A DNA stretch of 64,000 nucleotides from Isurus oxyrinchus. Lineage: Eukaryota. The stretch spans positions 5,456,001 to 5,520,000 of the forward strand of contig JANJGN010000041.1 of the NCBI GenBank assembly GCA_026770705.1, read 5' to 3'. The position numbers and the translations under genes were made by a program. Position 1 is the first letter of the stretch. Every line of letters starts with the position of its first letter. Positions 7,252 through 56,383 of this stretch are shown here, one piece after another. A model generated the notes under the pieces. The model made no database searches, was not told the DNA's origin, and saw nothing but the letters and a program-made list of their open reading frames with translations.

Positions 7252-8153
7252 TTAATCTTGTTGCGATTGTGATTCTTTCCCGAGGAAACTGTGGCCTTTC
7301 CAAATGTATTAGCTACTATATGATCGCCATGGCCGTGGCAGATCTCCTGGTTGTTTGTGCTGAAGTCATACTGAAAAATACGCTGGATATTTATTTCCCT
7401 GTTTTATTCTTGACCACGAGCACGGTGTGCCCTCTAACTGTGATTCTGACTTACGCAGTCATATCAGCCTCTGTCTGGTTAACAGTGGTGTTCACCTTCG
7501 ATCGTTTTGTGGTCATATGTTGTAAGAAGCTGCGAAAAAATTATTGCACAGGGACAACAGCGGTAGCTGTCACATCAGTGGTGAGTGTGTTGAGTTGTTT
7601 GATAAACATTCCCTGGTACTTTGCGTTTGAAACTGCATATATAATGGACAATGTAAATCGTGGTTGTGTCCTAACACAGAATTTTTTCATTTCTGCTGAA
7701 TGGGCCGCATTTGACTTGTTTACCATTATCATGACGCCATGTATTCCATTTATCCTAATTTTGTTGCTAAATGTTTTGACGGCTAGACGTATTTTGCTGG
7801 CCAGTAAAGTTCGCAGATGTCTCCGCGTTTGCAACAAGGATTCTGAAATAGAAAGCCGAAGAACGTCCATTATTTTACTCTTCAGTATAACCGGGAGCTT
7901 TATATTGCTCTGGACAACTCCGGTTATATATATTATCTCTTTGCATGTAACAGTCACATCGAATTCTGGCGCACATGCACTTCAGTCACTTGGATCCATG
8001 CTTGGGATCCTCAGTTGCTGCACAAATACATTCATTTATGTGCTGACACAGGCTAAGTTTAGGAAGGAGCTGAAGAACGGAATGCAGTATCTTGTGAAAT
8101 TGGGCATAAAATTAGGCAAATTACAGTGGAGTACCCGTTCACCATTTCAGTAG
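7252..8153 (+). CDS. Orphan class A GPCR, GPR139/GPR142-like (gene A), main coding exon; first coding exon predicted upstream of the window
   Basis: Open 7TM frame: TM1 end VNLVAIVILSR, TM2 MAVADLLV, TM3 FTFDRF, TM4 INIPWYF, TM6 SFILLWTTP, TM7 SCCTNTFIY, helix 8 KFRKELK. Polypyrimidine tract plus AG acceptor (ctctcttacag|tt) at 7250-7251, phase 1. Stop TAG at 8151-8153. Confidence 0.9.
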
Positions 8154-8329
8154 GACATGAGGTTTGTGCCTTGAATGAACTCATGTTAGGAAAATGCTTG
8201 TAACAACGTTGAAGCATTCTGCATAAAATGATATCCTACTAAAAATGTTCATTTATACTATAATGTCAAACTGAACTCATTTTCACAGTGTACAGTATTC
8301 AATGCTGATTTGTATGTTGTGATAATATT

Positions 8330-8345
8330 AATAAATGATAATAAA
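8330..8345 (+). promoter_or_regulatory. Candidate polyadenylation signals of GPCR gene A
   Basis: Two AATAAA (8330, 8340) about 180 nt after the stop, kept at the homologous position in gene B (56539, 56549). Confidence 0.45.
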
Positions 8346-9759
8346 ACGTACTGAACCTCCACTGTTAGCTGTGCAGAGATTGAAAGGGTGAATTGTGATG
8401 CCAGCTGCTGACAGCCTGGTGTTCATTGGAACAGTTGTTCTTATCAACATAAGAACACCCCAAACATCAGCAGCTGCATCACGATAACTCGACAAATGTA
8501 ACATAGACAAACATCAGGAATTTCCTACAATCTACTCTGGGCCAAATAGTACATAGGGGGAATTTTCAGAACATGTTTCATGAAGTCTGGCACCCTGCAA
8601 ATATCGGACAGTTGCACAATGAGCTGCTTCTCCAAGTTCCATATACCTCAAACGATTGAAACAAGGAAGGCCTGGTCATCACGTGTTTTGTTAAAAGTCG
8701 GGTATTGACGCAATTGATCACACATTCCCACGATCCATAGTGCACAGAGACGACACCATATAATGGATTCAAAACTTTTAAATGCGATTACCCTACGATT
8801 CATTTGAAAGCACAAATGAAATCATACTTGTTTTTGCACGATTAATGGGACTACCTCCTCCCCACATGTTCATTCACAACACTCTCTGTCTCATGTTATC
8901 TGGTCCTTTCACACATACAGCCTTCAAATGGCTGTTATCATATTCTCGAATGTTTTAATATGTTTGACTTTATAGCCACTCATCAATGTAGTGTATGACG
9001 CTTCGACCAGGTATCAGCACGATTTCCCAGCCAAGAAACGTCTGATCACACGTGGCCCTCCCACCAACTTACGTCTTTGTATACCTATGCATATTGAATG
9101 TGAAAAAATGTAACGCAATTGTTCTCGTCGCATATTCTTATCATTTACCTAACTTAAATGCCATTCGTAGAAAGCAACCATTGACAGGCTACAGCACAGA
9201 AGCAGACTATTTGAACCGTCCTTTCCTTACTGTGTCTCTGCAGGAAGATGCAGGCGGCAGCCACTCTTCCAGCTTCTCCCTATCATCTGGGTCATTCGTT
9301 TTTCTCAGATTTAAAATTCAAAATCCTCTTGATCATTATTAGTTACCCACTCCAAACACCGGGTATAATGATTGGCCAGAACAACTGCCAGTTAAAGCAT
9401 CATTATAGAAACCCACAACCGCTGTCATTGAATAAATAAACATTAAAAACAAGACAGATTCGGTCATGGCATGAGGGGCATAGCTGGCACGAAGAGCAAT
9501 TATTGTCAATCTTTAATTGCTCTTGCAGCAAATAATATGTGCTCCATCCTTCTGAGCAGCTGCAGTGCTTCTGATATCTTCGCCCTGGCTGCTTAGGGCC
9601 TGAATTACTAATTGCCCAGATCACCGGCTCAGCTAGCACTCTTTTCTAAATGTTTAATCTGGCTTTTCGGCAACAGGACTTTCTATATATGCAACCCGAC
9701 TGTTCAGCTTCCAGTTCTTTCTGTTCCTGAAGGAACCTAAGTTCCACAAAGTAATGCCA

Positions 9760-10695
9760 CGACTCAACACTGTTTAGGTCCTTCATCAATGACCTCCTCT
9801 CCAGCTTAAGGTCGGAAATGGGGATGTTCGCTCATGATTCCACAATGTTCAACACAATTCATGATTCCTGAGATAATGAGGTTGTCCATTGCCAGATGCA
9901 GCATGTTCAGGCTTCGGCTCACAAGTGGAAAATGACATTTACAGCATACAAGTATCAGGCAATGACTATCTCCAAAATAGAATATCAAACCATTGCCCGT
10001 CAACATTAAATTACATTACCATAGCCGAAAATCGTACTAGCAGCATTGCAGTGGATATCATTGACCAGAAACAACATAACTGGATTGGCCAATAAATACA
10101 ACGTTTACAAATGCAGTTGAGATGCCAGGAATCCTGCAGCGAATAACACAAGTGTTGAAACCCAAATTCCGTTCCACCATTTACAAGACAGGAATTTCAT
10201 GGTATACTCTCTACTTGCTGGGATGCATGCAGCTCCAATATTAGTCAAGAAGCATGATAGCATCTGGGATAAATCAGCCAGTGATTGACACCACATCAAT
10301 GAACGTTGACACTCTCCACCACTGATGAACAATGGCAGCAGTGCTTAATATCTGCAAGGTGCGCGGCAGGAATTCTGGAAATCAACTTGGACCATTCAGT
10401 CCAAACCCACGAAGGATAATGGGCAGCAGGTTTATGCGAACACGACTATTTGGAAGTTCCCCTCCAAACTACTCACCAGCTTGATTTGAAATGATATTCC
10501 TGTCCCTTCCTTGTCATCGTGTCAAATTCCAGGAACTCCATCCCCAAGGGCACTATGCGTGCAGAGTGGCCAGAGGGACTGCTGCGGTTCAAGAAGGCAG
10601 CTCCACACCACTTTCTCTAGGGTACTTATGTCTGGGCATTAAACACTTGCGAACGACTGGCACCAACATCCTCTTAACGAATAATAATAAAATAT
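9760..10695 (+). mobile_element. Degenerate CR1-clade LINE 3' portion (RT C-terminus and 3' tail)
   Basis: Remnants RSEMGMFAHD (YADD-like region) and IIDQKQHNWIGQIN, ending in an A-rich tail at ~10680-10695. Paralog at ~57880-58830. Confidence 0.65.
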
Positions 10696-11489
10696 AATTG
10701 TCCCTCTGGCTGCACAGCTACTGCGCTTCCCATTTTTCCAGTCTGTCAGCTCTGTTCTACTATAACCAAATCACTTTCCTAGCTAATACTTACTGCTTCT
10801 TATAAAACTAACCTCTTGCTATTTAGCTCCCGGACTTTTATAAATCTCTGCTCTGGGGGAAGAGTGCCTTTTACCTTCCAATCTGTGTTTTGATTATCTA
10901 AGGCACGCTTTTTTTATCTCTGTTATGGGGGTGTAGCCCCTTTCTAATCTTTGCTTTTAATATCTCTCTCTAGCTCTTTTTAAATTGCTCCTCTGGCCAC
11001 TCAGCTTCCGCTCTTTTTACATATCTGCCATAGTGCCTCAACTACTCCTCTTTCTAAAAAATATCACCTGTTCGTGCACAGCTCCCAGCTCGCTCTAAAT
11101 CTCTGCTCTCACTGTTCAGCTGCAGCAGTAAAAGAATAATTAAACCTGCCCTGACTGCCAAGTGTCTAGCCCGGAATTGGAGACTGTTGAGTTTAATTAA
11201 GAATGATCACTGGTTTGTAGCACCACCGTATCTGAGGAAGTGGGCAAAATCTACAAAGGTTGAAAATAGTGAATTCTTCTGACGCACCTCCCACTGAAGA
11301 TTTAACATATGGTCCAGCAAATTCGCTAGATGTATTCAAAAAAAAAGACGATAGTTATTACAGTAAGGAGGGAGTTTGTGAAAATCATCGGAAGTGCCTA
11401 TGTCGTTCCAAATGATGATGAGAACGAAATTTTCAGCAGATCTAAAAGCACTGGAAATGTTAAACGGAGAAAGGGTTGAAACAAATTGC

Positions 11490-12760
11490 CTGCTTTACAC
11501 GAAAAATCGCTGATGAAACCTTTTCATTCTGCTGCAAATTATACGTCATAGAAACCACATGCAGATTATGCAAGGAATGCGGCAGTGTCTGGAATCATCT
11601 CAGTGATAGATTGCAATGTCATCGAATTATCTAAGGACAATATTCAAAGCGCAACAAAATGAATTGAAAGAAAGCGAATGATCCCAGAAATGGAGGTACT
11701 GGATGTGGAAGCACAGAGATATATAAACAAGGTGAGGATTAATGACAAACAACGTTGACAGGCATTATTGCAGCCGTTCAGTTCTAGATGAGCAGATCTC
11801 AGAGTTTTTTCGGACACCTGCAAGGCTTTTTGAGCACACCATTGAATCATTTCTGGGAATAATTGCCATTGGAGCTAACTTCGACCCTCTGATGCATGGA
11901 TATGCCCCATGCAGCATAAAGTAAATATACTCCTGACCATTTTCTTGGAACTCGTATTCAAAATGAGCTAATTTCGATGATGACATTGCAGGTGAAGAAA
12001 TTGAACTTTATTGTAAACGTGAAGGCTGCAATACACCTTGCGCTTCTTCTTGTCATTACCCCTGGTCTGACTGATGAAGATCAGTTATTCCTTGTGCTTC
12101 GTTAGCTTGATCTGTTTTCTGAAGATGTGAATCCAAGGGAGGATTTGATTCATTCTCTGATGATTCAAAACAAAATTTAGTAAGGCCTTTCTGTTTCTCT
12201 CAATGATGCGCCAAATGGGCTTGGCCTTCGCATCACTGTGAGAGGCAGGGACTCAACAATCTGGTAAATATTAAGGATCAGAAACGAGGCGTACAGGCCT
12301 GCCCACTTCAACACAACCGTTGAAGCTTTTTAACCCCATGAGGCTGCCACAACTTATCTCTGGTATTGGAAGAAACAGCAAACTGTAGTTCTAAACAATG
12401 AAATTGTTTTGGAGTTGTGCAGGGAAATTAAAGAATTATTACAGTTTGAAACAACAAATGACATATATTGAGAGCGGAAGCTTCCTGGATAATGTTAAAG
12501 TCATTGTCAGACTGTTGGTGGAATGTCTAGTATAGAGTGGAAATGCAATATGTTACCAAACAGCTGATATCAGGAAGGCATTGATTACAGTTACTGAAGA
12601 ATGTGGCAACTCAGCGTTAAAATAGAGACTTAGTCCATGATCAACTACGAAGTTAAAGGTTTCGAATTTTGCTTGGCAATGGTTGAGTGGCACAACAGCA
12701 TATTCGCCAGAAGCATCGTGACCCAGAATATTTAATACTTCGATATGCAGCTTTGTGGGG
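11490..12760 (+). mobile_element. Fossil hAT-superfamily (Tip100/ZMYM1-like) DNA transposase
   Basis: Frameshifted remnants match hAT transposase motifs: IIAAVQFL, FLGIIAIGANFDPLM, DHFLGTRIQNELISM, C-RGQG..N..NIK.QKRGVQA, GCHNLSLVL, FEFCLAMVEW. Many stops. Confidence 0.8.
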
Positions 12761-12829
12761 CTTTAGCATTTCAGAGGGAAGGCGAAAATGAAAAGCAGGC
12801 TCCGTAGCACTCGTAATAAGCTAAGATAT

Positions 12830-14200
12830 TATTGGTAATAGCGGACATTTCATTAAATGATGATGGGCCAATTTGTGAGGAGTTGGGAAACATCAAGGGG
12901 ATCAAATACTTGTGGGAGTTGTGAATAGCCCAGCAAACCACAGTGCTAAATTGTGGCGTGGTATACATCAGGAAATTCGTGCTGAATGTAACATGGTTAA
13001 AGTAGGAAAATTAGAAACTTCAGTTTGCAACAAGACCATCGTTAAGCAAATCAGCACTAATAGCATGCAAGAGGAATTCATTGAATGTATCCTAGCTTGG
13101 TTTCAGAACTAGTAAGTTGAGGAGCCAACTAGGAATCGAGCTAGACAGGATTTAGTGCTCGATCATGCGAAAGACTCAAAGCATTTCAGTGCTCTCAATT
13201 AATCTTTGGGAAATAGTCACAATAAAGTGATTGAGTTTTGCAATAAGTATGACAGCGATATGCTGAATCCTGAAACTTGGTGGTTAAATCTGAATAAAGA
13301 AAATTCTGAATGTAAGAGAGGCAAGTTGGCTATAATAGATTTCGAAAGTAAAGGAAAATGTTTGTTAGTGGACAGGGAATGGCGAGTATTTAAGGAAATA
13401 ATGCACTGTCTACATCAAACAAGCATTCATCGAAAGCTCAACACAGAGACAGAAAGAAAACTCAACCGAAGTTCCCAATGAAGTTAGATATCGCGCTTCA
13501 TGAAATGAAATGATTTATCATGGTGCAAGAGAAAAAGTGGTAAATCTGAGGTTTGGGAGAACTTTAGAACCCAGAAAGTGAGGACCAAGAAACTGATTTA
13601 TAAATGGGAAGAGAATGTAATGCAATCCAGTTAGGAACATAAAGCGCAAGTCTCGGAACTTTACATGTAGGTAGGGGAATATTTATCATGGAGAACAGGG
13701 AAACATCATGGTAACGAAACAATAACTTTTCGCCTGTCGTCACAGAAGAACTTATAGAATATTTCCAAGATAAGCTAGGCAACCAAATGAGTTGTGAAAC
13801 AGGGAAGCGAAAAGGAATAAATAGTTTTACAGGAAACGGTAGTGCTTGACATGTGAACTGGATTGAAGGTTAAATAATTTGCTGGACTAGAATTGCTTCA
13901 TCTCAAGAGTGCTGAAGGAGGAGGCTGAAGAAACAATGGTTGCATTGTTTGTTTTGTTTCAAAATTCTTTAGTTTCTGCAAAGCCTCCAGCGAATTATAA
14001 AATATCAGATGTTGCATCACAATTGAAGAATATAATAAGATGGTCGAGGGAGAACTGCAGACATGTTAGTTTTACATAAGAATTCTGGGAAAAGTTATTA
14101 GTACGGAGGTGATAACTGGGTATGTAGTAAAGAATGATAACATTGCACAATCTGATCAAGGATATATGAAAGGGAAATCATGTTAGAAAAACAATTAAGC
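12830..14200 (+). mobile_element. Degenerate CR1 LINE ORF2 (endonuclease to RT start)
   Basis: Remnants GVVNSPAN, QEEFIECI, EPTRNRARQDLVL, LGNSHNKVIEF, WRVFKEIM. Paralog at ~61490-62830. Confidence 0.75.
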
Positions 14201-14645
14201 AACTCACTGCATAAAGAGACTCCACATATATCCAGATTTTCAATGCTGCGAGGGCCCAGCATATCAGTGGAAAATGTAAAGCTAAAGCCCTCTCAAAGGT
14301 ACCGAATGGATGAGGCAACTTGGCCTCCTCCATAGGTTCCCAAAATTACAGATGTTAGTCTTCAGTCAAGTTTATTCACACTCTGTGATATCAGGAAGCC
14401 GCTGAACCTCTGGATACTGCAGGACGGTGGGCACGAGAATATTTCGGCAATTGTACTGAATGCTTGTGCACTCGATATTGCCCTATGGCATAGCCATGCT
14501 GCTCCAGTACAGATTCAACACTGGCATCTACTCAAATATCAGAAAAATCGCCCAGGTACGAGGTACAGAAAAATGCAGCACAAGCCCAACCTGTTCATTA
14601 ACAGTCGCGTGAGCCTCCATTTGATAATCAGGAAAGTAATGGAAG

Positions 14646-15378
14646 AACACCTGCAGTCTGTCCGCAAGAATGACCCAAACCTCCCTGTCGCTTGCCATTT
14701 TAACACTCCACCCTGCTCTCTTGCACACATGTCTGTCCTTGGCTTGCTGCATTGTTCCAGTGAAGCCCAACGCAAACTGGAGGAACAGCACCTCATCTTC
14801 CGACTATGCACTTTACAGCCTTCCGGACTGAATATTGAATTCAACAACTTTAGTTCGTGAGCTCCCTTCCCCATCCCCGCCCCCTTTTTGTTTCCCCCTT
14901 CCCTTTTTTTCCAATAAATTATAAAGATTTTCCTTTTTCCACCTATTTCCATTATTTAAAATTAAAACACCCCCACTAGAGCTGTACCTTGAGTGCCCTA
15001 CCATCCATTATTAATTAGCACATTCGTTTAGATAATATCACCAACTTTAACTTTAACACCTATGTGTTCTTTTTTACTATTGTTGTTGACATCTTTTGAT
15101 GATCTGCTTCTATCACTGCTTGTTTGTCCCTACAACCACACCCTTCCCCCTCCACCTCTCTCTCTCTCTCTCCGCCGCCCACACACACACCTTAAATCAG
15201 CTTATATTTCAACTCTTTCTTGGACTCGAACTCAAGTTCTGTCGAAGGGTCATGAGGACTCGAAACGTCAACTCCTTTCTTTCTTCGCCGATGCTACCAG
15301 ACCTGCTGAGTTTATCCAGGCAATTCTGTTTTTGCTTTGCTTTGGATTTCCAGCATCCACAGTTTTTTTTGTTTTTAT
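14646..15378 (+). mobile_element. 5'-truncated Penelope-like retroelement (GIY-YIG endonuclease C-terminus plus 3' region), flanked by a 12-bp TSD
   Basis: Frame EHLQSVRKNDPNLPVACHFN…LEEQHLIFRLCTLQPSGLNIEF is typical of a PLE GIY-YIG end. Direct repeat aagtaatggaag at 14634-14645 and 15379-15390. Empty site in the paralog at 63280-63291. Confidence 0.9.
15235..15273 (+). ncRNA. Minimal type I hammerhead ribozyme-like motif in the Penelope-like 3' region
   Basis: agtt-CTGTCGA-a-gggtc(atgag)gactc-GAAA-cg-tc-aact. Stem I agtt/aact, stem II gggtc/gactc, vestigial stem III. The core reads CUGUCGA rather than CUGANGA. Confidence 0.6.
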
Positions 15379-16789
15379 AAGTAATGGAAGGGTTCATCAA
15401 GCGGCATCTGATCAGCAGTACTCTGCTCATGGAGGCTTAGTCTGTTTCCAAAAGATTCAGTCTGTTCCTAATAGCATCACCGCCATGGTCAAAATATGAG
15501 GTAACAGCTTGACTCCAGATGTGACGTGATAGTGACCACACCTGATATCAAGGGAGCATATGATCACTTGTGGCATCAAGGCGCCCTCAAATAAACTGAG
15601 TCAACGTGAATTAATGGGAAAACTCTTCGTTAGATGGAGTCATATCTGGCACAAATGAATATTGTTCTGGTAGTTGCAGAAGATTCATCTCAGTTCAAGG
15701 ATGTCACTGCAGGAGATGCTGAGGATTTTGGCTAGTCCTCAGTACCATCAGCTGCTCCATCTATCACCATTCTTCCAACATAAGCTCATAATTGTTGATT
15801 TTCGATGACGATTGCACAATGGACAGTGTATTTGCAATGCCCCAAATACTGACCCGTCCATGCCCAAATACTGGAATGCTTGGATATTATCCAGGCTTGT
15901 GGAGAGAAGAGGCAAGTAACGTTCATGACACATAAGTACTTAGCATTTTTATCTCCAAAAAATAAACTAACCATCGTCGCTTGGCATAAGTAATATTATA
16001 ATTTCCGAAACCACCGCTACCATCATCCTAGGAACAAATGTTGACCAGTAATTGAACTGGCCAAACCATACAAATACTGTGGCTACAAGAGCAGGCCAGT
16101 GGATAGGGAATCTGCCGCGAGCAGATCACGATCTGACTCCCCACTGCTGGGCCACCACCTACAATACACAACTCAGGAGATCCCGGAACAATGCTGCTCC
16201 AACAGCCCTCAGCATCCTCAAAACCATCCATGACAAAGTTGGATTGGCAGCCCTTCAATAAGCGTGCACTCCCTCCACCAGCAACGAACAATGATGGCAG
16301 TGTGCACCAGCTGCAATATTTTCCTCAGGAGTACAGCCCTCTGCCTTAGACAGTACATCGTAAATCCAGAACAGCTGCCATCTAGATGGACAAGAACAGC
16401 AGGCACATGGGAAAACCAGCACTTGCAGGTTTTCCTCCCCGCTACTCACCATCCTAGCTTGGGAAGATCCGCGTTCCTTCATTGTCGCTGGGTCAGACCC
16501 TGGAGCTACCACCTTTAACTGAACTGGTGGTTTATCTGCAACAAACGGACAACCAAGGCTCAAGCATTGTATTCCCCACCACCTTGACAAGTGTAATTAG
16601 GACGGGCAGTCAATGGCTGCCTAGAACAGCGATACTAACATTCCGTAAATTATAAAGAAGAATGTAGACATGTTAACAAGTTGAGAATTTTTCCAACTTT
16701 TCGTCACTATGTGGCATTCTGTTCATAAACAATGACTGCAATGATATTGAATTTATTCAACGTAGATGTAGAAAGATTTTTTGGTACAG

Positions 16790-24479: not shown

Positions 24480-25130
24480 TCAGTTTGACACGATTGGAGC
24501 GCTCTGAATATGGCTGGTCCCATATCCCTCACTTCTAACACAGTCTGAGGACCGTGTGCAGTGTTGGTGTCTGTATCCCTCTGGTAGAGCACCCTTGGAG
24601 AACTGTCCGCAGTTCTGGTCTCCATATCACTCGGTTAGACCACACTTGGAGCGCTGAGCAAAGTTCTGGTCACAATACCCCTCGGATTGTTAACATTTGT
24701 AGCGCTGTGCACATTTCTGGTCTCCATATCCCTCGGTTAGACCGCACTTGGAGCGTTGTGCACAGATCCGGTCTCCATATCCATTCGTTAGCCGAAGCAT
24801 GGAGCTCTGTGCACAGTTATGGTCTAATATGCGTTGGTTAGACCACACCTGGAGTATTGTGAACAGTCCTGGTCACCATACCACTCGGTTAGACCCCACC
24901 TGGAGCACAGTACACAGTTCCAGTGTCAATATCTCTCAGTTACACCATATAAGGAGCACTGTGCACGCTTGTTGCCTCCATTAGCCTCGGTTGGGCCGCA
25001 TGCAGAGCACTGGAAGCAGCGCTGCTCTCAGTATCTCATGTTTAGACAGTACCTGGAGCACTGAACACAGCACTGATTTTACTATCGAGATGTTAGATCA
25101 CACTAGTTACAGTGTGCACAACTCTTGGCT
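24480..25130 (+). repeat. 51-bp minisatellite array derived from CR1 ORF2 (~12-13 units)
   Basis: Unit starts ctcgg at 24630, 24681 and 24732. Consensus CTCGGTTAGACCACACTTGGAGCACTGTGCACAGTTCTGGTCTCCATATCC encodes SVRPHLEHCAQFWSPYP, matching the CR1 motif LVRPHLEYCVQFWSP. Confidence 0.9.
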
Positions 25131-35830: not shown

Positions 35831-36159
35831 GCTGCGGAAAGCAGTGGGCCGGGGTCATTAGATCCTCAGAATCTATCAGAGCAGGATTTATGGAATTACA
35901 GTTAGCTCCAGTCGGAGCCATGGACATCTCGCATATAGGGACATGTTATGTTTAGGCAAGTAATTTCTTATGCAGCAAGTGAGCCAAAAATATGAAGTAT
36001 GCCAAGAACCACCTCTCATATCTGTAACATCGGACAAATCTGCAGGTGCCTCCCAAATCATCACACTCTCTCCATTGTCCTTGGAAACAGAAAGGGATAA
36101 TTCAGTGCTACAAAATTTCAAAGCTCTGCCGCATCTGGCTGCCATGCAACCAAATTCAC

Positions 36160-42250: not shown

Positions 42251-42764
42251 ACATTTATGTGACTGAAAGTGTTGTCCAGGTTGATTAGCAGTTTACAAAT
42301 TTGATGCAGCGAAGATCTTAGGGTTTTATGTCAGGTCGAGGGAAAATTTACCCTTGGCTCTAGGTCTGGTGAGTCAGTTTTGATTTATTTATCTCATTTT
42401 GTTTCTCTTCCCGGTAAGTTAGTGATGTTTTTGTTCCTGTCGCAAGGAAAGTGTTATCCTTCAAATGTTATTATTTGCTAGCCGAAGCGCATGGCTTCGT
42501 TCGAGTTCCTGGAAGTCATATCCGATCCGATGTTATGGGGGATTTGATGGGCGAAATTCCCAGTTTTATTGGTGTGCAATACTCGCATCTCGCATGTGGA
42601 AGGTCAATGTGTTTCTATGTTTCTTTTTCATTCACAATCACACCTTTCTGCTTCACTGTTGCCTTAATCAATGATACGACAGTGGATATTTTTTGCATGA
42701 ACCATTTGTATTTAAGCCCTTCAATTTCACATCTTTCTATCTATCCATCCATTTATCCATGTAA

Positions 42765-43546: not shown

Positions 43547-43581
43547 ATTCCATCTCGCTCTCTCATTCTCTTGTTCCTTCG

Positions 43582-45620: not shown

Positions 45621-47456
45621 AAAATGACCAACACAAGTAAAAAAGAAATAGTTTCACACAGACAAACCATTTTGCATCTCTCTGATCATGACGCCATCAC
45701 CAAAGTGTGAATGACACTGATCATCTGTTCAGGGCTGTCGCATATTTATGGATGAGTTGGATAGTTTATTGACCAATAAGGGAGACTAGGGACATGAGGA
45801 TATAATTGTGTGTTGTGGGAGAGATGGCGGAGGGGGCCGGTGTACGGCGCTGGTTGGGGTAACAGAGGCAGAATAGCGGTGCTGAGGCTCTGATCAGATA
45901 AGCCATGAGCCTTCCGATTTGCAGAACAGGCTCAAGGGGCCGAATGGCCTACTGAACTTAACTATTCTGTTTTTGGTGCTTGTTTGAAATGCAACCCACA
46001 CCAAAGTCGGAGGGGCCATCGAACGGATTCATCATACAGTGCATCCATCTCCTAATGATTGTCTGCAGAAGGGATTTGAGGGCCAAGAGTTAAATGTTAT
46101 GCATGGAACACCCTCACAGCGATGTACTCCATATATCCCATTATTTTATTCAAAAAAAAAGTTTTTCATTCAGTTAAAGCATCTCTCTGCATGGAGTATG
46201 TGAATGGGTGAGCAGGAGGATTGCATGGCGTGGGGAATCGTTACTGAGGGTGTATGGGGTTGGATTGTCTTGAACGCATTATCTTGAAATATTTCAGTTG
46301 AGAAAACAAAAGCCTTCTCCATACACTTTCTATTACACATCAGGTCACGAGCAACTCCAACCTTCTGGGTCCTCCATTTGCATTTATAATTTCCAGGCAG
46401 AATGGTGCAAATGTAGGTGCAACAACACAGAATGTCACTGACGGAAATGTAATTTCCAGAGGAATCCACGGAATTATCTGGGCAGCTTATTAGTCCCCTC
46501 TGGAAGATTAAATGACAAAGTCATATATCAGACATGTGCTCTGTTGGAACATAGAATGTGTCCCGAAACACATTCTATGTTGGCCATTTCATTTCGAAAT
46601 GGTGTCTTTCAGAAGGAGAATGACTGACGTAAACTGTTTGTTCAATGACTGAAACTAATTGATTTCTTTTGGGGACATGAATGCGCTCATGGGGATTTAT
46701 CTGCTGCCTATATAACAGTTTCTCTGAATGTCACATTTCATGTTTTCCAAAAGGCTCGGTGTGTCTGTTTCTACAGGAGTTAGCGCTTCTTCCCAAGGAT
46801 ATAATTTGCTCTACTTCATCAGGTATGGGCCATTTACAAACCCATTCTTGAAGTTCTCATTTTCCAATGAACGTTTATTAACATGCTCTCGGACTAACAA
46901 TGTAAATTTCTGTCCTTCTTTAGTTTCATGGATGAGGGTAACGCTTGCAAGGCCTGTATTGCCCATCTCTAATTCTACTTGTGAAGTGGGTGTTGAGCTG
47001 CTACGATCTTTGTGGTGTAGTTACATCCACGTTCTTATTCGGGGGGGATCCATTAACTTGACATGGAGACAGTAAAGGAATGGCAATAGTTTTCCAAACC
47101 AGGGCATTGAGTGGCTTGGAGAGGGACGATCAGCGAGCGGCGTTCCCATGTTCATGTTCCCTTTGCCTTTCTAGATCATTGCAGCTGTGTGTATGATTAG
47201 TTAACTAAAGGGCTTCATGTTCGCCAAATGTAACAGCTTTTCTCTGTTCACTGCTACGATTGCTGTCGTGCCTGTTTTACCCTGTTACTCCAGATTAATT
47301 AACGTGGCATCTCCTCCCGAATCTCCTGTGATTTTAACGTGATTCTCTTATTTTCCTGAACTGAATTTAAAGAAGAAGAGGGTTTCTACGTTTCAGTTCA
47401 GACATTCATTCCATATTCTGCATCGATCTCTGCAGGAAAGACATCTCCTCATAAAG

Positions 47457-47526
47457 ATGGGAGAACTGATACTGCACCAGATAGAAGCCATTTACTATCC
47501 TATTCTCGCGGCCATTGGTGTTCCTG
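47457..47526 (+). CDS. GPCR gene B, first coding exon (N-terminus and TM1)
   Basis: aagATGG Kozak context. Encodes MGELILHQIEAIYYPILAAIGVP plus one base, then donor G|GTAAG at 47527. Phase 1 joins the acceptor at 55445 to give TM1 …AIGVPVNVVAIVIL (GxxxN motif). Confidence 0.85.
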
Positions 47527-48079
47527 GTAAGAGCATAAATACTACCATTACCGGTATAGATGCATGTTGCCGTTTTTTTATAACGCTGGTTCCAATAACA
47601 TGACATCTTTTCTTTACTGCTGGGGAGTCATCAAAGCAGTGATATATGTTTAACCATAAGGATAACAGATTTCTTCCTGCTGCTTTACTTTATACTCGGT
47701 GGTATCCACTGCTGATAACCTGTTATTGCTTAATGGAATGTTATGTCACAGGGTGGGCTCTACAATAATTATCATCATCAAGCACAAACCGAATTTCAAC
47801 TTTTAGAAAATACAATCTCTGAAAATCTGTGCAGGAGAAAATTTGCATTCTGCAAAATTCTGCTTGAAATACTTGAACCTATTGTTCATGATTTTCATAA
47901 ATTTTCCAATATTTAGTGGAACAGAATCCCTGAAGAAAACATATGCTTATTACCACAGCGATCCTTTTGCAAATCTGTATGCAGAAAGGATATCGGGAAG
48001 TCTGGCTGAAACACATTACCGTGTGTGCTGAATACAATCCGATTGTCTATTGAAATGCATTCATTTCTGCAGCCTCATT

Positions 48080-48465
48080 TATTGAGCACCTCAATAAATT
48101 TACATGAATTGTAGTCACTTAAGTAATGAAAAAGATGACAGGCAATTTTTGTTCCGGAAGCTTCCAGAAGCAGCAAGTTGATAATGACCAGATGATCCTT
48201 TTTTGTGCTTTAGCAGAGGTTTAAATAGTGGTCATGACGCAAGGGGCTATGACAATGTTGTTCAGCGAAATAGTGGCATGGAATCTTTGACGTTAACCCT
48301 GTGAATCGAATTGACATCTGTTCTGAAAGTTATTACACCCAATATTGCAGAACTACTTCACTACGGCAATGGATAATTAGCCGAGAATTTTGATCTCAAG
48401 AACTTACGCCGGACTTAAATAATCAAACATCTATCTCAGCACGTGGTTTGCTAACTGAGACATAA
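48080..48465 (-). mobile_element. Degenerate DeuSINE-like element in the gene B intron
   Basis: cagcaagttgataatgaccagatgatc…gaaatagtggcatggaatcttt…gctaactgagaca resembles, from recall, the reverse strand of cartilaginous-fish Deu-domain SINEs. Confidence 0.5.
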
Positions 48466-51400
48466 GTGGTCCGATTTCGGAAGACCTACGCTCCCCGAGT
48501 AGATATCTGGTTCTCATTATTCTGCTCATTTCAATTTCTAGCCCTGCACTTCCTGCTGTTGAAAACGCTGCTTCAAAATCTAACTGAATTACACTGAGAA
48601 TTGGAGTGGAGTGATAGTAAGAATTGTCGGACTTCCCTGTGGCTTTGGGAAACTCACATTGTCACGATACATGGTGGCCCTGACAGAGGGCCAGAGGAGC
48701 ATAGGAAATACGAGTAGAAGTCAACAATTTGGCAGCACGAGGGTGCTCCACTGCTCAAGTATACCATGGCTGAAATTATGCCTCCGCGATATTCCATGCA
48801 CTATTTCATACCTTTGTGTGCATTTAATATTTAGAATTCGGTTCATCAGCACTTTCAACATATTCAATGACTGCCCGTCAGCCGAGGTTGCTGTATATAA
48901 GTTCGAACATTTAACCTTACCTGAGTGATGAAATTCTTCCTCATCTCAGTTCCAAATTGCAGACCTCTTATTCTGATATTGCTTTTCCTGGTTTTAGACA
49001 CACCCGCTAGATGAAACATCCATTAAAGATCTACACCGCTGAAACTTATAAGAATGGTGAATGCTTCAGAGAGATCACTTCTGATTGGTAAAAGCTCCAG
49101 AAAGCAGAAGATGAGTCTCGTCAACGTCTCCACACAGGGTAACACCAGTTAAGTACCATTCCCAAGAAGTATTCTGTTTAACATTCCTAATCGCAGAGCA
49201 AGAACAACAAGTAATGAAATCTACACCGAAGGTGTAAAGTAGAATGTTTGAAAGCACCACAAACATCACCATAAAGAATCCACATGAAAATTACAAAGTT
49301 GGTTATACGCTGGGCTTTGGTTACAATTTGTGGCTGTGCACAAATCAGCTCCAGCTGATGGTCCACAGTCCCTCGTAAATGCAGAATTTTTAGTTCTTTA
49401 TCAAGGTGAATCCTACCCCATTTAGCACAATGGTTGCATCACAAAATTGCGGTGGATGGAAGCCCCGATATGAGGGCGGAATTAGTCTGTACGAGGACCA
49501 TGCCCAGGTCAATCTAATCAAGCATTGAATAGACAGATGGACATTTAGTGGGCAGGTTGGTGGAGCAAATTCAATAAGCTTTTTGCACCTGGTTCTTTCC
49601 CTGACCACCTGCCAAAGACCCTGTCTAGCACTTAACTTTATGACTCTGCCAGCTCGGTCATTAGTGGAGCTACCAATCCTTTCGTGCTCACAGACAACGA
49701 GGTCCCCGACGTAACTCACTTTTTTTTTCTTGTCACTCCCCAAAACGTCGGCCATTAATGATCATTAATTCATCCGCTGAGGGGAACGGTAGGTGGTCAC
49801 CAGGAGAGGACATTCATTGCCCATGTGATGTCATGAGATTTCATGTAATTACCACGTGCTCTGAAATGGTGCACACTGAAAGTGTTGCAACATGGTGCTT
49901 AGGAAAGCAGTAATGCAATTCAGCACAAGAAATTGGATGGTTGATTCAACTTTTACATAAGATTATTTCACTCAGATGTTTGCTGATGATTGATAAGAAC
50001 TTTAAAAGCAGTAAGAGGAATTATTCAGTTAGGGATAAAAAGCTTGATTCATTAAGTTTAAGAATATTTGCAAATCAAGAAGTCTTCTTTGTCCAGGATT
50101 AAGTCAATATCCTTGAACTCTCTTGGAGCGTAAATCATCTGGACAGGTGTAGCTTATCCCCTCACACTCCTGATTTGTGTACATCAGATGGAGGAAAGGT
50201 TTTGTAGAGTAAGGAGTTTCATTGCTCAACATAGTAAGCTCAGATTCTGACCAGCCCTTTTAGTCGCAATTTCTTGTCAATGGTTTTTCCAAGGATGTTG
50301 AAAATGGGGCCTGAAGCCTCTACATCAGCCTGTTTCTTCAGTCATTCCTTCAATTCAAGTGCTGAGAATCGCATTGTATAAAGACTGGCATCTGGGATGT
50401 TTGTCATCCATAGGAGGAGATCGGGATGGTGCATCCACCCGTTACTTCAGGGTGAATGTGGCTGCAAGTTCTACAGCCATGTATATGCACTGGTTCACTG
50501 TACTCCACAGTCATTGCCAATGGGGATATTGGTGGAAGCAGTCCAAAAGTGAGGTGCAGAACTTTCCACGACCGTTGAAGTCTTGTGTGACAGGACTTTA
50601 GAGCTGAGCTATCGTTATTTGCTAGGAGGATGATGGAGCCCTGTCTCTCTCATGCTGAATACGCTGTTTTGCCTGCAAGTAGCCCTGTCTTACAATTCAC
50701 CCGGTTAAGCCCTGTAGTTAGGTATGATCGCTGCTGATGTGGACATATGACAGATGTTGACAAAGTTCCTTCATTTGTGCATTTGACCTCGAAAGCCTGG
50801 AAGGATTAGTGCAGAAGTGGCATGGGAACACTCTTAGTTACAAAATCCTTTCCAAGTCACACACCAAACTGACTTGGAGAGACATAACATTTCCCTGACT
50901 GTCACTGGATCTAAAACCTGGAAATCCACCGCTCGAAGCATTGTGTCTGCACCAGCTTGACATGGACTGCAACATTAGAAAACCTCATTTTCAACGGGGA
51001 TTCGTGAAAATGGAAGTAAAAGTGCAATTCTTGTCAATATATCCAAAGAAAAGAAAATGTTGCATGATGACAAATCTATGACTATTGATAGCCTTTTTGT
51101 ATTGAAATGACGGCCCTGGCTGCTTCTTCCGTTCCCACTCAACAAAGATTATCTACAAAATCAATGTTTAAATACGAATTATATCCGGAGTACACTGGCC
51201 CCTAACTGAGAACGTATATTTTGATTTCAGTCCTCAATATTAAATCTTAAACCAGAAGGATTGCCTGGAATTTTCGTCCACACATCGCCCCCTCGCGTCC
51301 CAAGCCCCAAATTCCCCACTCTCCAACAGCCATCGCCCACAAAAATGCCGAATCCGCGCAAAGAACATTGACTTGCATCGTGTATGATGACGTCACGTAC

Positions 51401-52876
51401 TTGAATCTCCCAGATGCAGCTGGAGAACAGGCGGGCCCACCTTTTCCAAGTTAGTAATTAGCAAGTTATTGAGCTTGTGTATGACACAATCGTATGTTTT
51501 TTTTCATTGGTGCTCTGCACTTACCGTGGCCCAGAGGAGAGAGAAAAAAATATTTCTGGGCAGCTACCATCAGGCGAGAATCGCGAGGAAGACAGGTTAT
51601 GCCTCCGGGACCATGATTGAATGTAGCAACGGCTTGTGCTGGTGAAGCCTTCATGTTTACTTTTCAGGTTTTTATTTCTTGCCTGAGCTTTCAGGGAAAA
51701 TTATTTTTTGAAAATCAGTTTCTGAGAGCAAGTGATCTTGACCTTGCAGCCATACCGACTTGCTGCTTACAGTATTACTCTCTGCCACATGCTGTTCAGG
51801 CTTTCACTGCCGATTGGACGTGTCCCCACTTTGCATCACTCAATGCCTCCTCCAAGTGGGAATTTAATGAATTGCGGAGCGGGAGATGGTCTAAGGGAGG
51901 GTGAGTAGGAAAGGGCTGATTTTGCATTTCTCCAATCTCATGCTGCCCCCAAATGTAAAATCCAGACCGCTCTCTACTTATTGTATTGTTTCTTAATGAT
52001 CTTAAATCACGTTTAGCGGTTTGAACATGCGCCGGAAGATTTCTGTCACTTCTCTAGAGTAACTGTTGCTGTCGAGCCTGCAGCAATGTGCCATACACAC
52101 AAACACACTTCAGTGGATCACACTCGGAGTAGTGTTCGCCACAGCATTCACAAATTCACTGAAATGAATTAATCCTTAATGATCTGTTTTGAATGCAAAA
52201 TATGCCATTAGAAAATTGTTGTTTTGTTCTTAAATTGCGAATATAACATTGCTGTTAAAGTGCTATGGATTTGGGACCGTGGAGGAAACTCCATTGCTCT
52301 GTCGTTCTTCACACTCAGGTAACGAGTCTGCAGTAACGACACCAAGAGGCCCATGAACTGAAGTGCACTGCACCTGCTCCAGGTTCCTTTTCCTAAGCAC
52401 CGAAGCAATAACAGGTCAGAAGCAGATTGCAGTTGCAGAGAGCAATGGGTCCTTCTGTCGCGTTTATACATGTTGATTTCTCTAATTTATTTATCAGGGA
52501 ATAATGTTCATAATATATTTGATGACGGTATTCTTAATTTGCTAGCTAAATAGTTGATAATGGATTGAATAGGTCACTATTTCTTCAGTTGATCATTGAA
52601 TGGTTCATTTCTGGGGCATTTCAACGTTCAATTCGGAGGAAAATTCTGGGAATATACTGATAATTTATTGAATAATAGTTTTGATAATTAATTTGTTCAA
52701 ACATTGGCTGCTTCATTACACAATTGTTTAAATTACTGTATTTTTTAAGCCCTTTCCTTATTTACAGTGCTGGCCAGTAGAGTTTCAAGTGCTGATAATT
52801 TGACTAAGAATCTTTGTATAATTCACAATAGTGCACGGATAATTATGCCTCTCAGTTTAAATGCACGTTATTATAG

Positions 52877-52878
<2 letters not shown>

Positions 52879-52932
<54 letters not shown>
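52879..52932. repeat. (AT)27 microsatellite
   Basis: Perfect AT dinucleotide run. Confidence 0.98.
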
Positions 52933-52935
<3 letters not shown>

Positions 52936-55445
52936 GTTTGATCAAATAATAATAGGTATTGGGTAAATGAAGTTCAATTTTAATTTTTAACAATTACTTC
53001 AAGCTGCAATTGTGTCAAAAAAGCTTTGATTAATAATGCTTCCATCTTTTCCAGTGTATCCTACATGGTCAACAGAAACTCAAACCTTAATTTTTTATCA
53101 ATTGCCTGGCGTTTTCAGTGTTGTTTTTGATTTTCTTTGACAGCTCCATTAAGGCAATGACTGTTTGCTGCTTGCATTCGAGTTAGAAAACTGTAAATCG
53201 AAGGTTGCCAAGGTGGCTGTGTATTTAACGCAAATAGGTTTTTTTTGTTTGTGTGGTCAAAGCTTGCCAACTTACAATCTGATCCAAAAATGTAAAGACG
53301 CTGTTTATCTTTATCCGACTAATTTGTTTTTCATCATTCAACGTTCATCTGAATCATTAACCAACAACTTACTGAAATAATATGATCCAAAATGTTACTT
53401 CACCACCCCGTTAACAGACGTTCAATGCATTGTTTTTCAATAAGTTCAAGTTTGCGAAAACTCTCCGTTCAGTCTGCACCATGTTGCATAGCCATGAAAC
53501 CAGTTGGTACTTGAAATAAATCTCTACCTACTCGTCCCATTATTTTGAGAATGTGCATTTTCCATTCCCTATTCTGTGCCTCACGAATCTGACCAGAGAT
53601 TTCAGTTGGAAGGCGATTCAGCACCATTGTCACAGCCATGTCATCCTATCCTATAGCATCACCACCTGAACTACAACGAAAATTTCAGCAGCGATCCGAT
53701 TTCCTACTTGCGATAATAATTCAGGCTAGTGTTATTTACCTTGCTTTAAAATGCAGGAATTAATTTAGTAAATGTGCGCATCAAGTTGTTACATATCTGG
53801 CAGCTAAAAATTAGATTCACTTAGAAAATCTATTCTTCAAAATTCAAGTGGACCTTTACTAAGTAAACGACAGAAATCGTAATGCAATCTGTGAGTCACG
53901 TCAATTTCGCTTGAATTGTATAAATCATTTTATTTAATCCGTCTAAATGTCTGTCTGAAGTTAATCTTCTGCAGAATAATGCACCATTGAATATCTTGGC
54001 CTATTCCCTAAAAAGGATCCTGCATTTTGAAAAAAAAAAGCGATATGGATTTTAACAAATAAGGCAACCGTTTTATGAGCCTGCCCAATCTGAAATGAAT
54101 TCAAACATGGGGCTGGTAGGAGTTAGGTGTTTATCGTCACGTATTCGACAATTTGTAATTTCATTTTTCTGAACATCTATTAGTCTACAGAATCAAATCG
54201 ATGTGCCCTTCACTGTCAATCGTTATCCCGCACTTTGTGCCCAGCAAAAATCAATTTTCAGCTTCACATTTAAAATCACTTCACACGGATGCTGTGCTTG
54301 GGACGCAAGCGTCTCCCTCCTGACCTTTCAGCAACTAAGTGATTTGTTTTGCAGCCGATCAATTATTGGGAACTCTGTCCTGTCTACTTGGAAGCAAAAC
54401 ACTAGTTATGACGTCGCTAGGATCACATCTCCGAATGGCTCAGTAACTTTGCTTTGCAAGAAATGTGCCCCTATGGCCAATAAATATTGCACACTCAATC
54501 TGATAGCAAAGTCACCCTTCCCAATCAGCAATTAAAATGCCCTCTTTTTCAGTACTGAATGCACACATTCTGCGTAGCAATGTTGTTTTACTCATTCTGC
54601 AATAAATTAGCGATGCATTCACATGAAATATTCACAATGCCCAGCCAGCATATCAATCTCAGATTACTCAGTCTAACATAAAGCACATGACTGATCAGAT
54701 CTCATCACCGAATAAAACTTCTCCCTGGGAACCTGCATAAGAACGTCACCTAATACTGATTGCCATTGTACCGCTCCTCTGATGACACCTGTGTAAACTA
54801 GCGTTCAGCCTTATCTATGCTGGTCTTTTATGTAGCTCAGTGACCATTTTCTGGTCCTTTGCCTTTACCATTTCATCTTTACTCTCACAAGCGTTCAAAG
54901 TCTGTTCGTGCCGCTGGGCAATATCTTACCTTCAAGCTGCAGGTCCTGTAGCACAGTAAACCTTCCCAGTACTTATTCACATCTATAGACCACCCAGCAC
55001 GCCTTTCTCCACTCCCTCTTCCAGAGTATAACTCTTCCAGGCCTAGATTCTATTTTGTGCCTTAATTTCCCCACTTCGCATTGTACCAACACATAAGAGT
55101 TGACTCTGTAGACCTCCCCCTTGCCTTTTAATATTCACCATGCCATTTGTTTGTGTGTAATCAATTTTTCCAGGTCACATTCGCCCTCAGCAACCTCAAT
55201 CATTATTATACAATTGTTATCCAGTTTACATTGAAGATGTTGCTTTCAAACGACGAAGTATCAAATGATGTTTTTCGTCCCTATCAAATTTAAGTAGGCC
55301 CAGTTTACATTTAGAACATGCTCGCCTCGGAAAGCTGACTGTGCATTGTTTGGTCAAATGAACGATCCTTTGCTGCAACAGGAAGAAAATTATTCACGTT
55401 CATCCGTGTCATCTATCTCCTGCTCTCTCTATCCCTCTCTTACAG

Positions 55446-56383
55446 TTAATGTTGTTGCGATTGTGATTCTTTCACGAGGAAAGTGTGGCCTTTCCAAAGG
55501 TATTACCCAGTATATGATCGCCATGGCTGCTGCAGATCTCCTGGTTGTTTGTGCAGAAGTCATACTGAAGAATATATTGGAAATTTATTTACCTGTTTCA
55601 TTTTTGACCATGAGCACAATGTGCATTCTAACTGTGACTCTGACTTATGTAGTCACATCAGCCTCTCTCTGGTTCACAGTGGCGTTCACCTTCGATCGTT
55701 TTGTGGTCATATGCTGTAAGAAGCTACGAAAAAAATATTGCACGGAGACAACAGCAGTAGCTGTCATATCAGTAGTGAGTGTTTTGAGTTGTTTGATAAA
55801 CATTCCCTGGTACTTCGCATTTGAACCTGCGTATATAATGGACAATGTAAATTGTGGTTGTGTCGTAAAACAGACATTTTTCATTTCTGCTGAATGGGCC
55901 GTATTTGACATGTTTACCGTTACCTTGACCCCATGTGTTCCATTCATTCTAATTTTGTTGCTAAATGTTTTGACGGCAAGACGTATTTTGGCGGCCAGTA
56001 AAGTTCGCAGGGGTCTCCGCAGTTGCAGCAATGGAGAACATCACAAGGATTCTGAAATAGAAAGCCGAAGAACATCCATTATTTTACTCTTCAGTATAAC
56101 AGCCAGCTTTATATTGCTCTGGACAACTCCGCTTATATATATTTTGTCACTGCGTGTATCCATCACATCAAATTCTGGCACAAATGAGCTTGAGTCAGTT
56201 GGATCCATGCTTGGGATCCTCAGTTGCTGCACAAATACATTCATTTATGTGCTGACACAGGCTAAGTTTAGGGAGGAGCTGAAGAACGGAATGCAGTACC
56301 TTGTGAAACTGTGCGTAAACATAGGCAAATTACAGCTGCGAACACATTGTTCTTTACAGGAGGACAGAAACTTTCTGCCCTGA
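55446..56383 (+). CDS. Orphan class A GPCR, GPR139/GPR142-like (gene B), main coding exon; spliced product 335 aa
   Basis: Acceptor ctctcttacag|tt at 55444-55445. Motifs MAAADLLV, FTFDRF, INIPWYF, ECL2 Cys (CGCVV), SFILLWTTP, SCCTNTFIY, KFREELK. Stop TGA at 56381-56383. About 80% amino-acid identity to gene A by manual alignment. Confidence 0.92.

What the first reader, a model, noticed from the sequence alone, without database searches (positions are those of the whole stretch)
7252..56383. Tandem cluster of GPR139/142-like orphan GPCRs: candidate unrecognised chemosensory receptor family
Seen: two open, same-strand 7TM genes ~48 kb apart, made by segmental duplication, in otherwise gene-free, transposon-dense DNA. 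Gene B has a very short N-terminus (~8 residues before TM1, no N-glycosylation sequon). Both carry variant motifs: DRF, LWTTP and NTFIY with no Pro at 7.50. Established: mammalian GPR139 and GPR142 are single-copy class A receptors activated by aromatic amino acids (Trp/Phe), and cartilaginous fishes have few classical odorant receptors. Inference: clustering, copy-specific pocket divergence and birth-and-death style change are hallmarks of chemoreceptor repertoires. These may be a lineage-expanded small-molecule or amino-acid sensing family rather than GPR139 orthologs.
Basis: partly seen in the sequence, partly recalled or inferred. Interest (0 to 1): 0.8.

Follow-up and report, generated by a model that had tools for sequence, protein, structure and literature searches.

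The report
Large uncharted shark GPCR family
Two working receptor genes and one decayed copy here belong to a large shark-and-ray family of orphan receptors, distantly related to GPR139, whose members differ most where ligands bind, as smell and taste receptors do, although where they are expressed is still unknown.

Summary
Two same-strand class A GPCR genes lie 48,194 bp apart in a segmental duplication of about 16 kb (77-81% identity). Gene B has two coding exons and 335 aa; gene A's first exon lies outside the window. A third, decayed copy near 42,400-42,700 was missed.

They are not GPR139 orthologues (about 26% identity). All 120 listed best hits, of 2,257, are sharks or rays. These include 45 distinct paralogues in one species. 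The sister lineage appears once per amphibian species, plus one sturgeon gene.

Across paralogues the pocket is variable and the intracellular face conserved, the reverse of low-copy relatives at equal identity. That fits a ligand-diversified repertoire.

Three first-reader arguments fail. A and B have nearly the same pocket. The short N-terminus and missing P7.50 are shared with low-copy relatives. Only 2 of 5 GPR139 agonist-pocket residues remain.

No expression data were found, so chemosensation (0.45) competes with an MRGPR-like immune or irritant role (0.25). Ten literature searches found no description of the expansion.

The parts
7252..8153 (+). Gene A, coding exon 2 (end of TM1 to stop; 299 full codons plus stop). 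Its first coding exon should lie about 1.1 kb upstream of the window start (inferred from the duplication offset).
   Evidence: ORF; acceptor; Pfam 7tm_1 E 1.2e-18; 240 of 299 residues identical to B
47457..47526 (+). Gene B, first coding exon (23 codons + 1 nt; short N-terminus and most of TM1; GT donor follows)
   Evidence: 21 of 23 residues identical to P0001; best window hit of a 64-sequence exon-1 profile, 38.4 bits vs next 2.6
47527..55445 (+). Gene B phase-1 intron, 7,919 bp, GT...AG
   Evidence: splice model computed from the sequence; no transcript evidence
55446..56383 (+). Gene B, coding exon 2; with exon 1 gives a 335-aa class A GPCR
   Evidence: AlphaFold model of exon-2 protein, mean pLDDT 89.6, helical bundle with ECL2 strands; class A receptors in Foldseek
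42374..42700 (+). Decayed third copy (pseudogene relic): acceptor region and TM1-end to TM3/ICL2, in-frame stops at about 42,479 and 42,545, frame change near 42,600, rest not found
   Evidence: family HMM 12.4 bits vs at most 2.3 in 12 of 12 controls; best tblastn E 7.5e-6; DNA alignment scores 141 and 144 vs maxima 129.5 and 121.1 in 200 shuffles each and 110.7 and 122.3 in 58 other window segments
1..16097 (+). Duplicated segment, copy A (runs off the window start)
   Evidence: self-BLASTN blocks 77-81% identity to 48618-64000; flank divergence 0.19-0.25 vs coding 0.11
48618..64000 (+). Duplicated segment, copy B (runs off the window end)

Best explanation
The window is part of a tandem cluster of a rhodopsin-type GPCR family that multiplied in sharks and rays from one GPR139-like gene, whose bony-vertebrate counterpart survives in low copy in amphibians and sturgeon. 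SHOWN: two-exon genes are copied by segmental duplication, kept under purifying selection or left to decay; dozens of paralogues per species keep a common intracellular face and vary at pocket positions. INFERRED: each paralogue binds different small molecules or short peptides and signals through a shared G protein. INFERRED, UNTESTED: the family is a chemosensory repertoire for outside chemicals, expressed sparsely in olfactory neurons, solitary chemosensory cells, taste, skin, gill or gut epithelium. Confidence is about 0.95 for the expanded non-orthologous family and 0.45 for the chemosensory role.
For: Expansion: 2,257 clusters at E<=1e-3 among 4,138 candidates; 120 of 120 listed are elasmobranchs from 15 species, 51 Heptranchias and 38 Heterodontus (tallied by hand), forming 45 and 36 groups below 90% identity. 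Low-copy sister: 21 amphibian rows from 21 different species plus one Acipenser row among 46 hits (only the 8,000 best candidates were scored). Tree: sampled family 99/98, joined to that gene 100/100; the alternative sister is rejected, p-AU 0.003. Pocket: at equal mean TM identity 0.70, pocket entropy is 1.57 and 1.58 bits in the two paralogue sets vs 0.51 in 40 orthologues of a conserved relative, while the intracellular half is 0.47 and 0.52 vs 0.78; 48 of 51 and 38 of 38 paralogues have distinct 11-residue pocket strings, vs 12 of 40 and 2 of 21 in the low-copy sets. Selection: dN/dS 0.49, bootstrap 0.31-0.77. Death: relic copy. Context: cartilaginous fishes average 43.8 known olfactory receptor genes (20-62) despite many olfactory neurons (PMC10869828, passages).
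Against: No expression or ligand data. In catshark, the 50 most abundant and specific genes of the brain-plus-olfactory library included no GPCR (PMC11979771, passage); this is weak, since the known olfactory V2Rs were missed by that list too. Pocket entropy does not significantly exceed other extracellular TM positions in the shark sets (p 0.06-0.16), so relaxed constraint on the outer half fits too. A and B share 10 of 11 core pocket residues. The same pattern is known (own knowledge) from MRGPR and FPR clusters, which act in immune and irritant sensing. The 33 pocket positions are my own list from class A numbering, not measured on a structure, and the paralogue sets are the closest hits to gene B, not whole repertoires.
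Confidence: 0.45

Rival explanations
1. An innate-immune or irritant-sensing repertoire working like mammalian MRGPRs or FPRs: expressed on granulocytes, mast-like cells or somatosensory neurons and detecting microbial, parasite or damage-derived peptides.
For: Same genomic signature. The MAS1/MRGPR family is reported absent from cartilaginous fishes (PMC8455134, passage), leaving that role open. The nearest characterised invertebrate relatives are peptide receptors (PMC8557429, passages). Foldseek's best matches are peptide receptors, though these are generic class A scores.
Against: No expression data. The one supplement file held for the nurse-shark spleen single-nucleus paper had no GPR139/142 string, but it is only 4,750 characters, so this carries almost no weight.
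Confidence: 0.25
2. Nearly neutral proliferation: a duplication-prone region spawns copies of a dosage-tolerant receptor; the outer half drifts because the ligand constraint is weak, and most copies are redundant or dying.
For: dN/dS of 0.49 is high for a GPCR (comparison from own knowledge); a relic lies in the window; pocket vs other extracellular positions not significant; many fragmentary hits.
Against: The bootstrap interval of dN/dS excludes 1 and coding DNA diverged about half as much as flanks; the intracellular face is more conserved than in orthologues of a low-copy relative at equal identity; several sub-lineages hold both sharks and rays.
Confidence: 0.12
3. Receptors for a matching set of endogenous or conspecific peptides (neuroendocrine, reproductive, seminal or pheromonal), like the protostome expansion of the sister clade (MIP, proctolin, FMRFamide, myosuppressin receptors).
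For: The protostome sister clade of GPR139/142 expanded together with aromatic-amide peptides (PMC8557429, passages). W6.48 and C3.25 are kept.
Against: Dozens of distinct pockets per species would need a matching peptide expansion; I know of none in sharks (own knowledge, not searched).
Confidence: 0.12
4. These are GPR139/GPR142 orthologues or Trp/Phe sensors using the GPR139 pocket, as the automatic annotation 'probable G-protein coupled receptor 139' implies.
For: Human GPR139 is the best solved-structure match (E 5.5e-10 single sequence; 1.4e-27 family profile); 109 or so of the 120 listed hits carry that name.
Against: About 73 of 276 query positions identical, counted by eye, whereas GPR139 is described as highly conserved across vertebrates (PMC12208981, abstract). 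Other GPR139-like lineages score better against human GPR139 (80, 68.8, 59.5 bits vs 42.5). Of F3.33, H5x43, W6.48, R6.51 and N7x38 (PMC5430874 abstract; PMC12775434 passages), A and B keep 2; 0 of 168 family members keep all five and 6 keep four.
Confidence: 0.03

Closest known systems
GPR139 / GPR142 (vertebrate orphan class A receptors; PDB 7VUG, 9M42)
   Same: Best solved-structure match; share N5.58, W6.48 and a TM7 motif without P7.50 (alignments).
   Different: About 26% identity; R6.51 and N7.39 not kept in A or B; many copies per genome; shorter N-terminus with no sequon, whereas the human N-terminus shows one (alignment).
Unnamed low-copy GPR139-like gene of amphibians and sturgeon (P0216 Pleurodeles, P0390 Xenopus, P0413 Acipenser)
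   Same: Sister lineage, 100/100; same short sequon-free N-terminus.
   Different: One cluster per species (21 rows, 21 amphibian species); nearly invariant pocket (entropy 0.12; 2 distinct strings in 21).
'GPR210A/B' (PMC6504862, passage) and 'Orphan 139-like' / 'NMOGPR' (PMC5207463, table passage): non-mammalian GPR139-like subtypes
   Same: Same broad group. A conserved gnathostome paralogue with shark members (P0267, P0270, P0274) probably matches one of these names (inferred; accession match not checked).
   Different: That paralogue is a separate clade with its own shark orthologues. The passages read list bony fishes and coelacanth for GPR210 and say nothing of a shark expansion.
Vertebrate chemoreceptor families OR, TAAR, V1R/ORA, V2R/OlfC, T1R, T2R
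   Same: Works like them, by inference: tandem birth-and-death clusters with variable pockets.
   Different: No sequence membership: Pfam gives only 7tm_1; different ancestry; has an intron in TM1; expression unshown.
MAS/MRGPR and FPR clusters; nematode srw receptors
   Same: Lineage-specific expansions of peptide-receptor-like class A GPCRs with diverse ligands (own knowledge). Atlas look-alikes include Srw-bearing clusters from nematodes and chordates (lead only).
   Different: No orthology shown; MRGPRs are reported absent from cartilaginous fishes.

Membership tests
Class A (rhodopsin-like) GPCR | 7tm_1 domain and 7TM fold with N1.50, D2.50, R3.50, P5.50, W6.48, N7.49, Y7.53, C3.25 | tested here: met
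   Pfam; model; Foldseek; residues
Class A (rhodopsin-like) GPCR | Canonical W4.50, P6.50, P7.50 | tested here: not met
   No Trp near 4.50 in gene B; T6.50 in 74% and T7.50 in 91% of 168 family rows; P7.50 also absent in low-copy relatives and human GPR139. Variant, not disqualifying.
GPR139 orthologue | High sequence conservation to human GPR139 | tested here: not met
   About 26% identity, 42.5 bits
GPR139 orthologue | Agonist pocket F3.33, H5x43, W6.48, R6.51, N7x38 | tested here: not met
   2 of 5 in A and B; 0 of 168 keep all five (residues)
GPR139 orthologue | Groups with true GPR139/GPR142 in a tree; conserved synteny | not testable with these tools
   No true GPR139 or GPR142 sequence was returned as a stored protein, so none is in the trees; no flanking genes in the window
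Broad GPR139/142-related group | GPR139 as best characterised match; N5.58; no P7.50 | tested here: met
   N5.58 in 100% of every set
Conserved gnathostome GPR139-like paralogue (GPR210-like) | Monophyly with P0227/P0267 orthologues | tested here: not met
   Separate clades; a clade of the two without the amphibian/sturgeon gene is rejected, p-AU 0.003
Known vertebrate chemoreceptor families (OR, TAAR, V1R, V2R, T1R, T2R) | Family-specific profile match or ancestry | tested here: not met
   Only 7tm_1 in Pfam; relatives are GPR139-like
Chemoreceptor repertoire (functional class) | Large lineage-specific expansion with tandem clusters and pseudogenes | tested here: met
Chemoreceptor repertoire (functional class) | Pocket more variable than the rest of the receptor | tested here: inconclusive
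   Pocket vs intracellular p<1e-6; pocket vs other extracellular positions p 0.06-0.16; reverse pattern in low-copy relatives p 1e-3 to 3e-6
Chemoreceptor repertoire (functional class) | Sparse expression in chemosensory cells; activation by environmental ligands | not testable with these tools
   No data found in papers or readable supplements

The most novel reading that the evidence does not exclude
This is a seventh vertebrate chemoreceptor family, confined to cartilaginous fishes as an expansion, derived from a GPR139-like receptor, larger than all known shark olfactory and taste receptor families together, and expressed sparsely in olfactory or solitary chemosensory neurons. It would explain how sharks smell well with only about 44 recognised olfactory receptor genes.
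Probability: 0.3. Interest if true: 0.92.

Novelty: new variant of a known kind. Interest (0 to 1): 0.72.

Why it matters
Published surveys treat cartilaginous fishes as poor in chemoreceptors (mean 43.8 olfactory receptor genes) and in GPCRs generally. A family with at least 45 distinct paralogues in one shark, seen in only the top 120 of 2,257 hits, already matches that number and is hidden under one automatic label. If chemosensory, it rewrites the shark sensory repertoire and gives another case of a peptide-receptor-like lineage turning into a chemoreceptor family. If immune or nociceptive, it would be the shark counterpart of the missing MRGPRs. Either question can be settled with existing shark RNA-seq. 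The low-copy amphibian and sturgeon gene offers a handle on the ancestral ligand.

Tried and rejected
Unspliced reading of gene B from the in-frame Met at 55,358: rejected, since those residues run through the polypyrimidine tract and acceptor, and a proper first exon exists 7.9 kb upstream. A-versus-B pocket divergence: not enriched. One search used the wrong TM5 proline as 5.50; one search corrected it (register confirmed), and only pocket figures are quoted. Short N-terminus as a chemosensory sign: rejected; 24-26 residues precede position 1.50 in 18 of 21 sister-gene rows and 22-25 in 8 of 8 amphioxus rows, with sequons in 0 of 21, 0 of 8 and 1 of 40. First tree left the sister unresolved; more taxa resolved it; 18 of the 59 rows were dropped for the careful tree. 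Foldseek was uninformative: generic class A hits, GPR139 at rank 39. Other genes, RNA families: none. First exons for gene A or the relic: none in the window. Expression data: supplements of PMC8455134 (24 files, one cut when stored), PMC10529500 (1 file), PMC4362833 (2 files) and PMC11589584 (4 of 5 files) had no GPR139 string; the catshark atlas supplement could not be read and may bear directly on expression; bioRxiv supplements are closed. Three papers were not held (white shark genome, Yun 2015, Hara 2018). P0195, P0266, P0183, P0252, P0257 and most representatives have no species name. No holocephalan name appeared in any listing, so presence in chimaeras is unchecked. No eukaryotic genome search was available, so per-genome copy and pseudogene counts are missing.


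Full report
OBSERVATION. The two longest stop-free frames in the window are 7203-8153 and 55298-56383 on the + strand. Both match Pfam 7tm_1 (E 1.2e-18 and 3.3e-20). Each begins at a polypyrimidine tract and AG acceptor, at 7252 and 55446, 48,194 bp apart. A scan for upstream exons found 47457-47526, followed by a GT donor. Spliced across a 7,919-bp intron it gives 335 aa with no internal stop and no N-glycosylation sequon. This exon is 21 of 23 identical to the start of a basking-shark model. The splice model is computed; no transcript was seen. Self-BLAST shows 1-16097 collinear with 48618-64000 at 77-81% identity, so gene A's first exon should lie about 1.1 kb before the window. A and B share 240 of 299 residues; over the first 290 positions dS is 0.19, dN 0.093 and dN/dS 0.49 (bootstrap 0.31-0.77); flanks diverge 0.19-0.25 and coding DNA 0.11. 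Both copies have therefore been under purifying selection. Of 176 stop-free frames of 72 aa or more, only these two had a significant Pfam match, and Rfam found nothing. Transposon density was not measured.

A THIRD COPY. A profile of 96 aligned relatives scored a region at 42,380-42,601 at 12.4 bits, against at most 2.3 in 12 controls. TBLASTN with the 426 stored proteins gave 86 alignments in that 500-bp bin, best E 7.5e-6. At DNA level it aligns collinearly with both genes from the acceptor to the end of TM3; scores were 141 and 144, against maxima of 129.5 and 121.1 in 200 shuffles each and 110.7 and 122.3 in 58 other segments. It carries two in-frame stops and a frame change. The window thus shows both birth and death.

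WHAT THE GENES ARE. The exon-2 protein of B found 2,257 clusters (90% identity) at E<=1e-3 among 4,138 candidates. All 120 listed are sharks or rays from 15 species, most labelled 'probable G-protein coupled receptor 139'. The closest are from Carcharodon (82%) and Cetorhinus (79%), which suggests a lamniform shark. By my tally 51 rows are Heptranchias and 38 Heterodontus; they form 45 and 36 groups below 90% identity. The other 2,137 hits were not listed, so their share in this family is unknown. The unfiltered search gave 104 representatives at E<=1e-30 and 160 at E<=1e-10. The best solved structure is human GPR139, at only 42.5 bits and about 73 identities over 276 query positions, counted by eye; a review calls GPR139 highly conserved across vertebrates (PMC12208981, abstract and section 8).

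RELATIVES. Two low-copy lineages emerged. One is a conserved gnathostome paralogue, found mostly once per named species in fishes, amphibians and reptiles and with shark members. It probably corresponds to 'GPR210' (PMC6504862, passage) or 'Orphan 139-like' (PMC5207463, table passage); I did not match accessions. The other appears as 21 rows from 21 amphibian species plus one sturgeon row. In a 41-row tree the 24 family rows (2 window, 16 named, 6 unnamed) form a clade at 99/98, sister to the amphibian/sturgeon gene at 100/100. Forcing the family together with the other paralogue is rejected (p-AU 0.003; hypothesis named after the tree was seen). A and B are each other's closest rows (98/90) inside a lamniform group (100/100). 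True GPR139 and GPR142 are not in the trees, because no tool returned them as stored proteins.

MOTIFS AND POCKET. In 168 family rows (126 named, 42 unnamed representatives) DRF occurs in 151, and NTCIY or NTFIY in 138. P7.50 is also missing in the low-copy relatives and in human GPR139, so it marks the broad group. Of 126 named models, 65 have exactly 24 residues before N1.50, and 0 of 71 with 22-26 residues have a sequon; sister genes and amphioxus are the same. The short N-terminus is ancestral. With TM5 numbering corrected (register confirmed), the 33 pocket positions I chose from class A numbering (recalled list) have entropy 1.57 and 1.58 bits in the Heptranchias and Heterodontus paralogues. 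In the first 40 of 120 rows of the conserved paralogue, at the same mean TM identity of 0.70, the value is 0.51. The intracellular half shows the reverse: 0.47 and 0.52 against 0.78. Distinct 11-residue pocket strings number 48 of 51 and 38 of 38, against 12 of 40 and 2 of 21. Against this, pocket positions are not significantly more variable than other extracellular positions in the shark sets (p 0.06-0.16). A and B differ at 5 of 33 pocket positions, mostly conservatively, no more than elsewhere (p=1.0). Of five GPR139 pocket residues (PMC5430874, abstract and section 15; PMC12775434, passages), A and B keep two, and none of 168 rows keeps all five. R6.51 is kept in the conserved paralogue and amphioxus, is lysine in the sister gene, and is highly variable in the shark family. 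The model is confident (pLDDT 89.6), but Foldseek returns generic class A receptors.

HOW IT MOST LIKELY WORKS. Shown: segmental duplication makes copies; survivors keep the signalling face and vary the outer half; some decay. Inferred: paralogues bind different ligands and use a common G protein. Untested: the ligands come from outside the body and are read by sensory cells (0.45). Cartilaginous fishes average 43.8 known olfactory receptor genes despite many olfactory neurons (PMC10869828, passages), and catshark has about 50 across the four families (PMC11979771, section 13). This family already reaches that size in one species from a partial listing. The main rival is an MRGPR- or FPR-like immune or irritant role (0.25); MRGPRs are reported absent in this lineage (PMC8455134, passage). 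Near-neutral proliferation (0.12), endogenous peptide signalling like the protostome sister clade (0.12; PMC8557429, passages) and GPR139-type amino-acid sensing (0.03) follow.

IS IT IN PRINT? Ten full-text searches listed no paper describing this expansion; I saw most results only as search listings. 'gpr139' with 'shark' anywhere returned 4 papers, of which I read passages of one. Passages of PMC12294341 and PMC10620051 were irrelevant. The whale shark paper speaks of a paucity of GPCRs in cartilaginous fishes. Its supplement has an orthogroup of 157 7tm_1 proteins in 12 taxa that could be this family, unverified. The library lacks most subscription journals, three requested papers were not held, and the catshark atlas supplement was unreadable. 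The genes themselves are already predicted in NCBI under an automatic name, so the claim is 'not found described as a family in these searches', no more.

VERDICT. Real feature; a large elasmobranch expansion of a GPR139-related lineage with repertoire-like sequence behaviour and unknown site of action. New variant of a known kind; interest 0.72.

Noticed in passing
   Followed up: yes
window 24,574-24,966; 31,071-31,650; 36,160-36,281: Three arrays of a related 50-51-bp minisatellite, the first inverted relative to the other two.
   Followed up: no
window about 14,646-15,378: Insert present only in copy A of the duplication. Its start looks like a Penelope-type GIY-YIG end (recalled); the atlas gave only a weak lead, GIY-YIG on 15% of members at score 0.91, and Pfam nothing.
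   Followed up: partly
window 10,777-11,225 vs 59,104-59,537: A 450-bp block is inverted between the two duplicated copies.
   Followed up: no
window 25,445-26,366 vs 34,981-35,831; 26,409-26,596 vs 26,859-27,046: Inverted dispersed repeats at 72-80% identity between the two genes.
   Followed up: no
P0216, P0389-P0407, P0413, P0419: An unnamed GPR139-like gene seen once per amphibian species and in sturgeon, with a nearly invariant pocket; closest low-copy relative of the shark family and a candidate for finding the ancestral ligand.
   Followed up: partly
P0227, P0267-P0384: A second conserved GPR139-like paralogue from sharks to reptiles, with no mammal or bird among the named rows; two models are labelled TMEM183A isoforms, hinting at a shared neighbour gene.
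   Followed up: partly
P0012 vs window 63,270-63,437; P0158/P0160 vs 14,627-14,812: Extra segments of some long database models match non-genic window DNA (E 2.6e-6 and 5.6e-4), suggesting those models include repeat-derived exons.
   Followed up: no
window 47,425-47,456: A possible splice acceptor 21 nt before gene B's start codon may mark an upstream non-coding exon.
   Followed up: no
PMC8455134 supplementary file 19: Orthogroup OG0000365 (157 proteins, 12 taxa, PF00001) may be this family; composition not available.
   Followed up: partly
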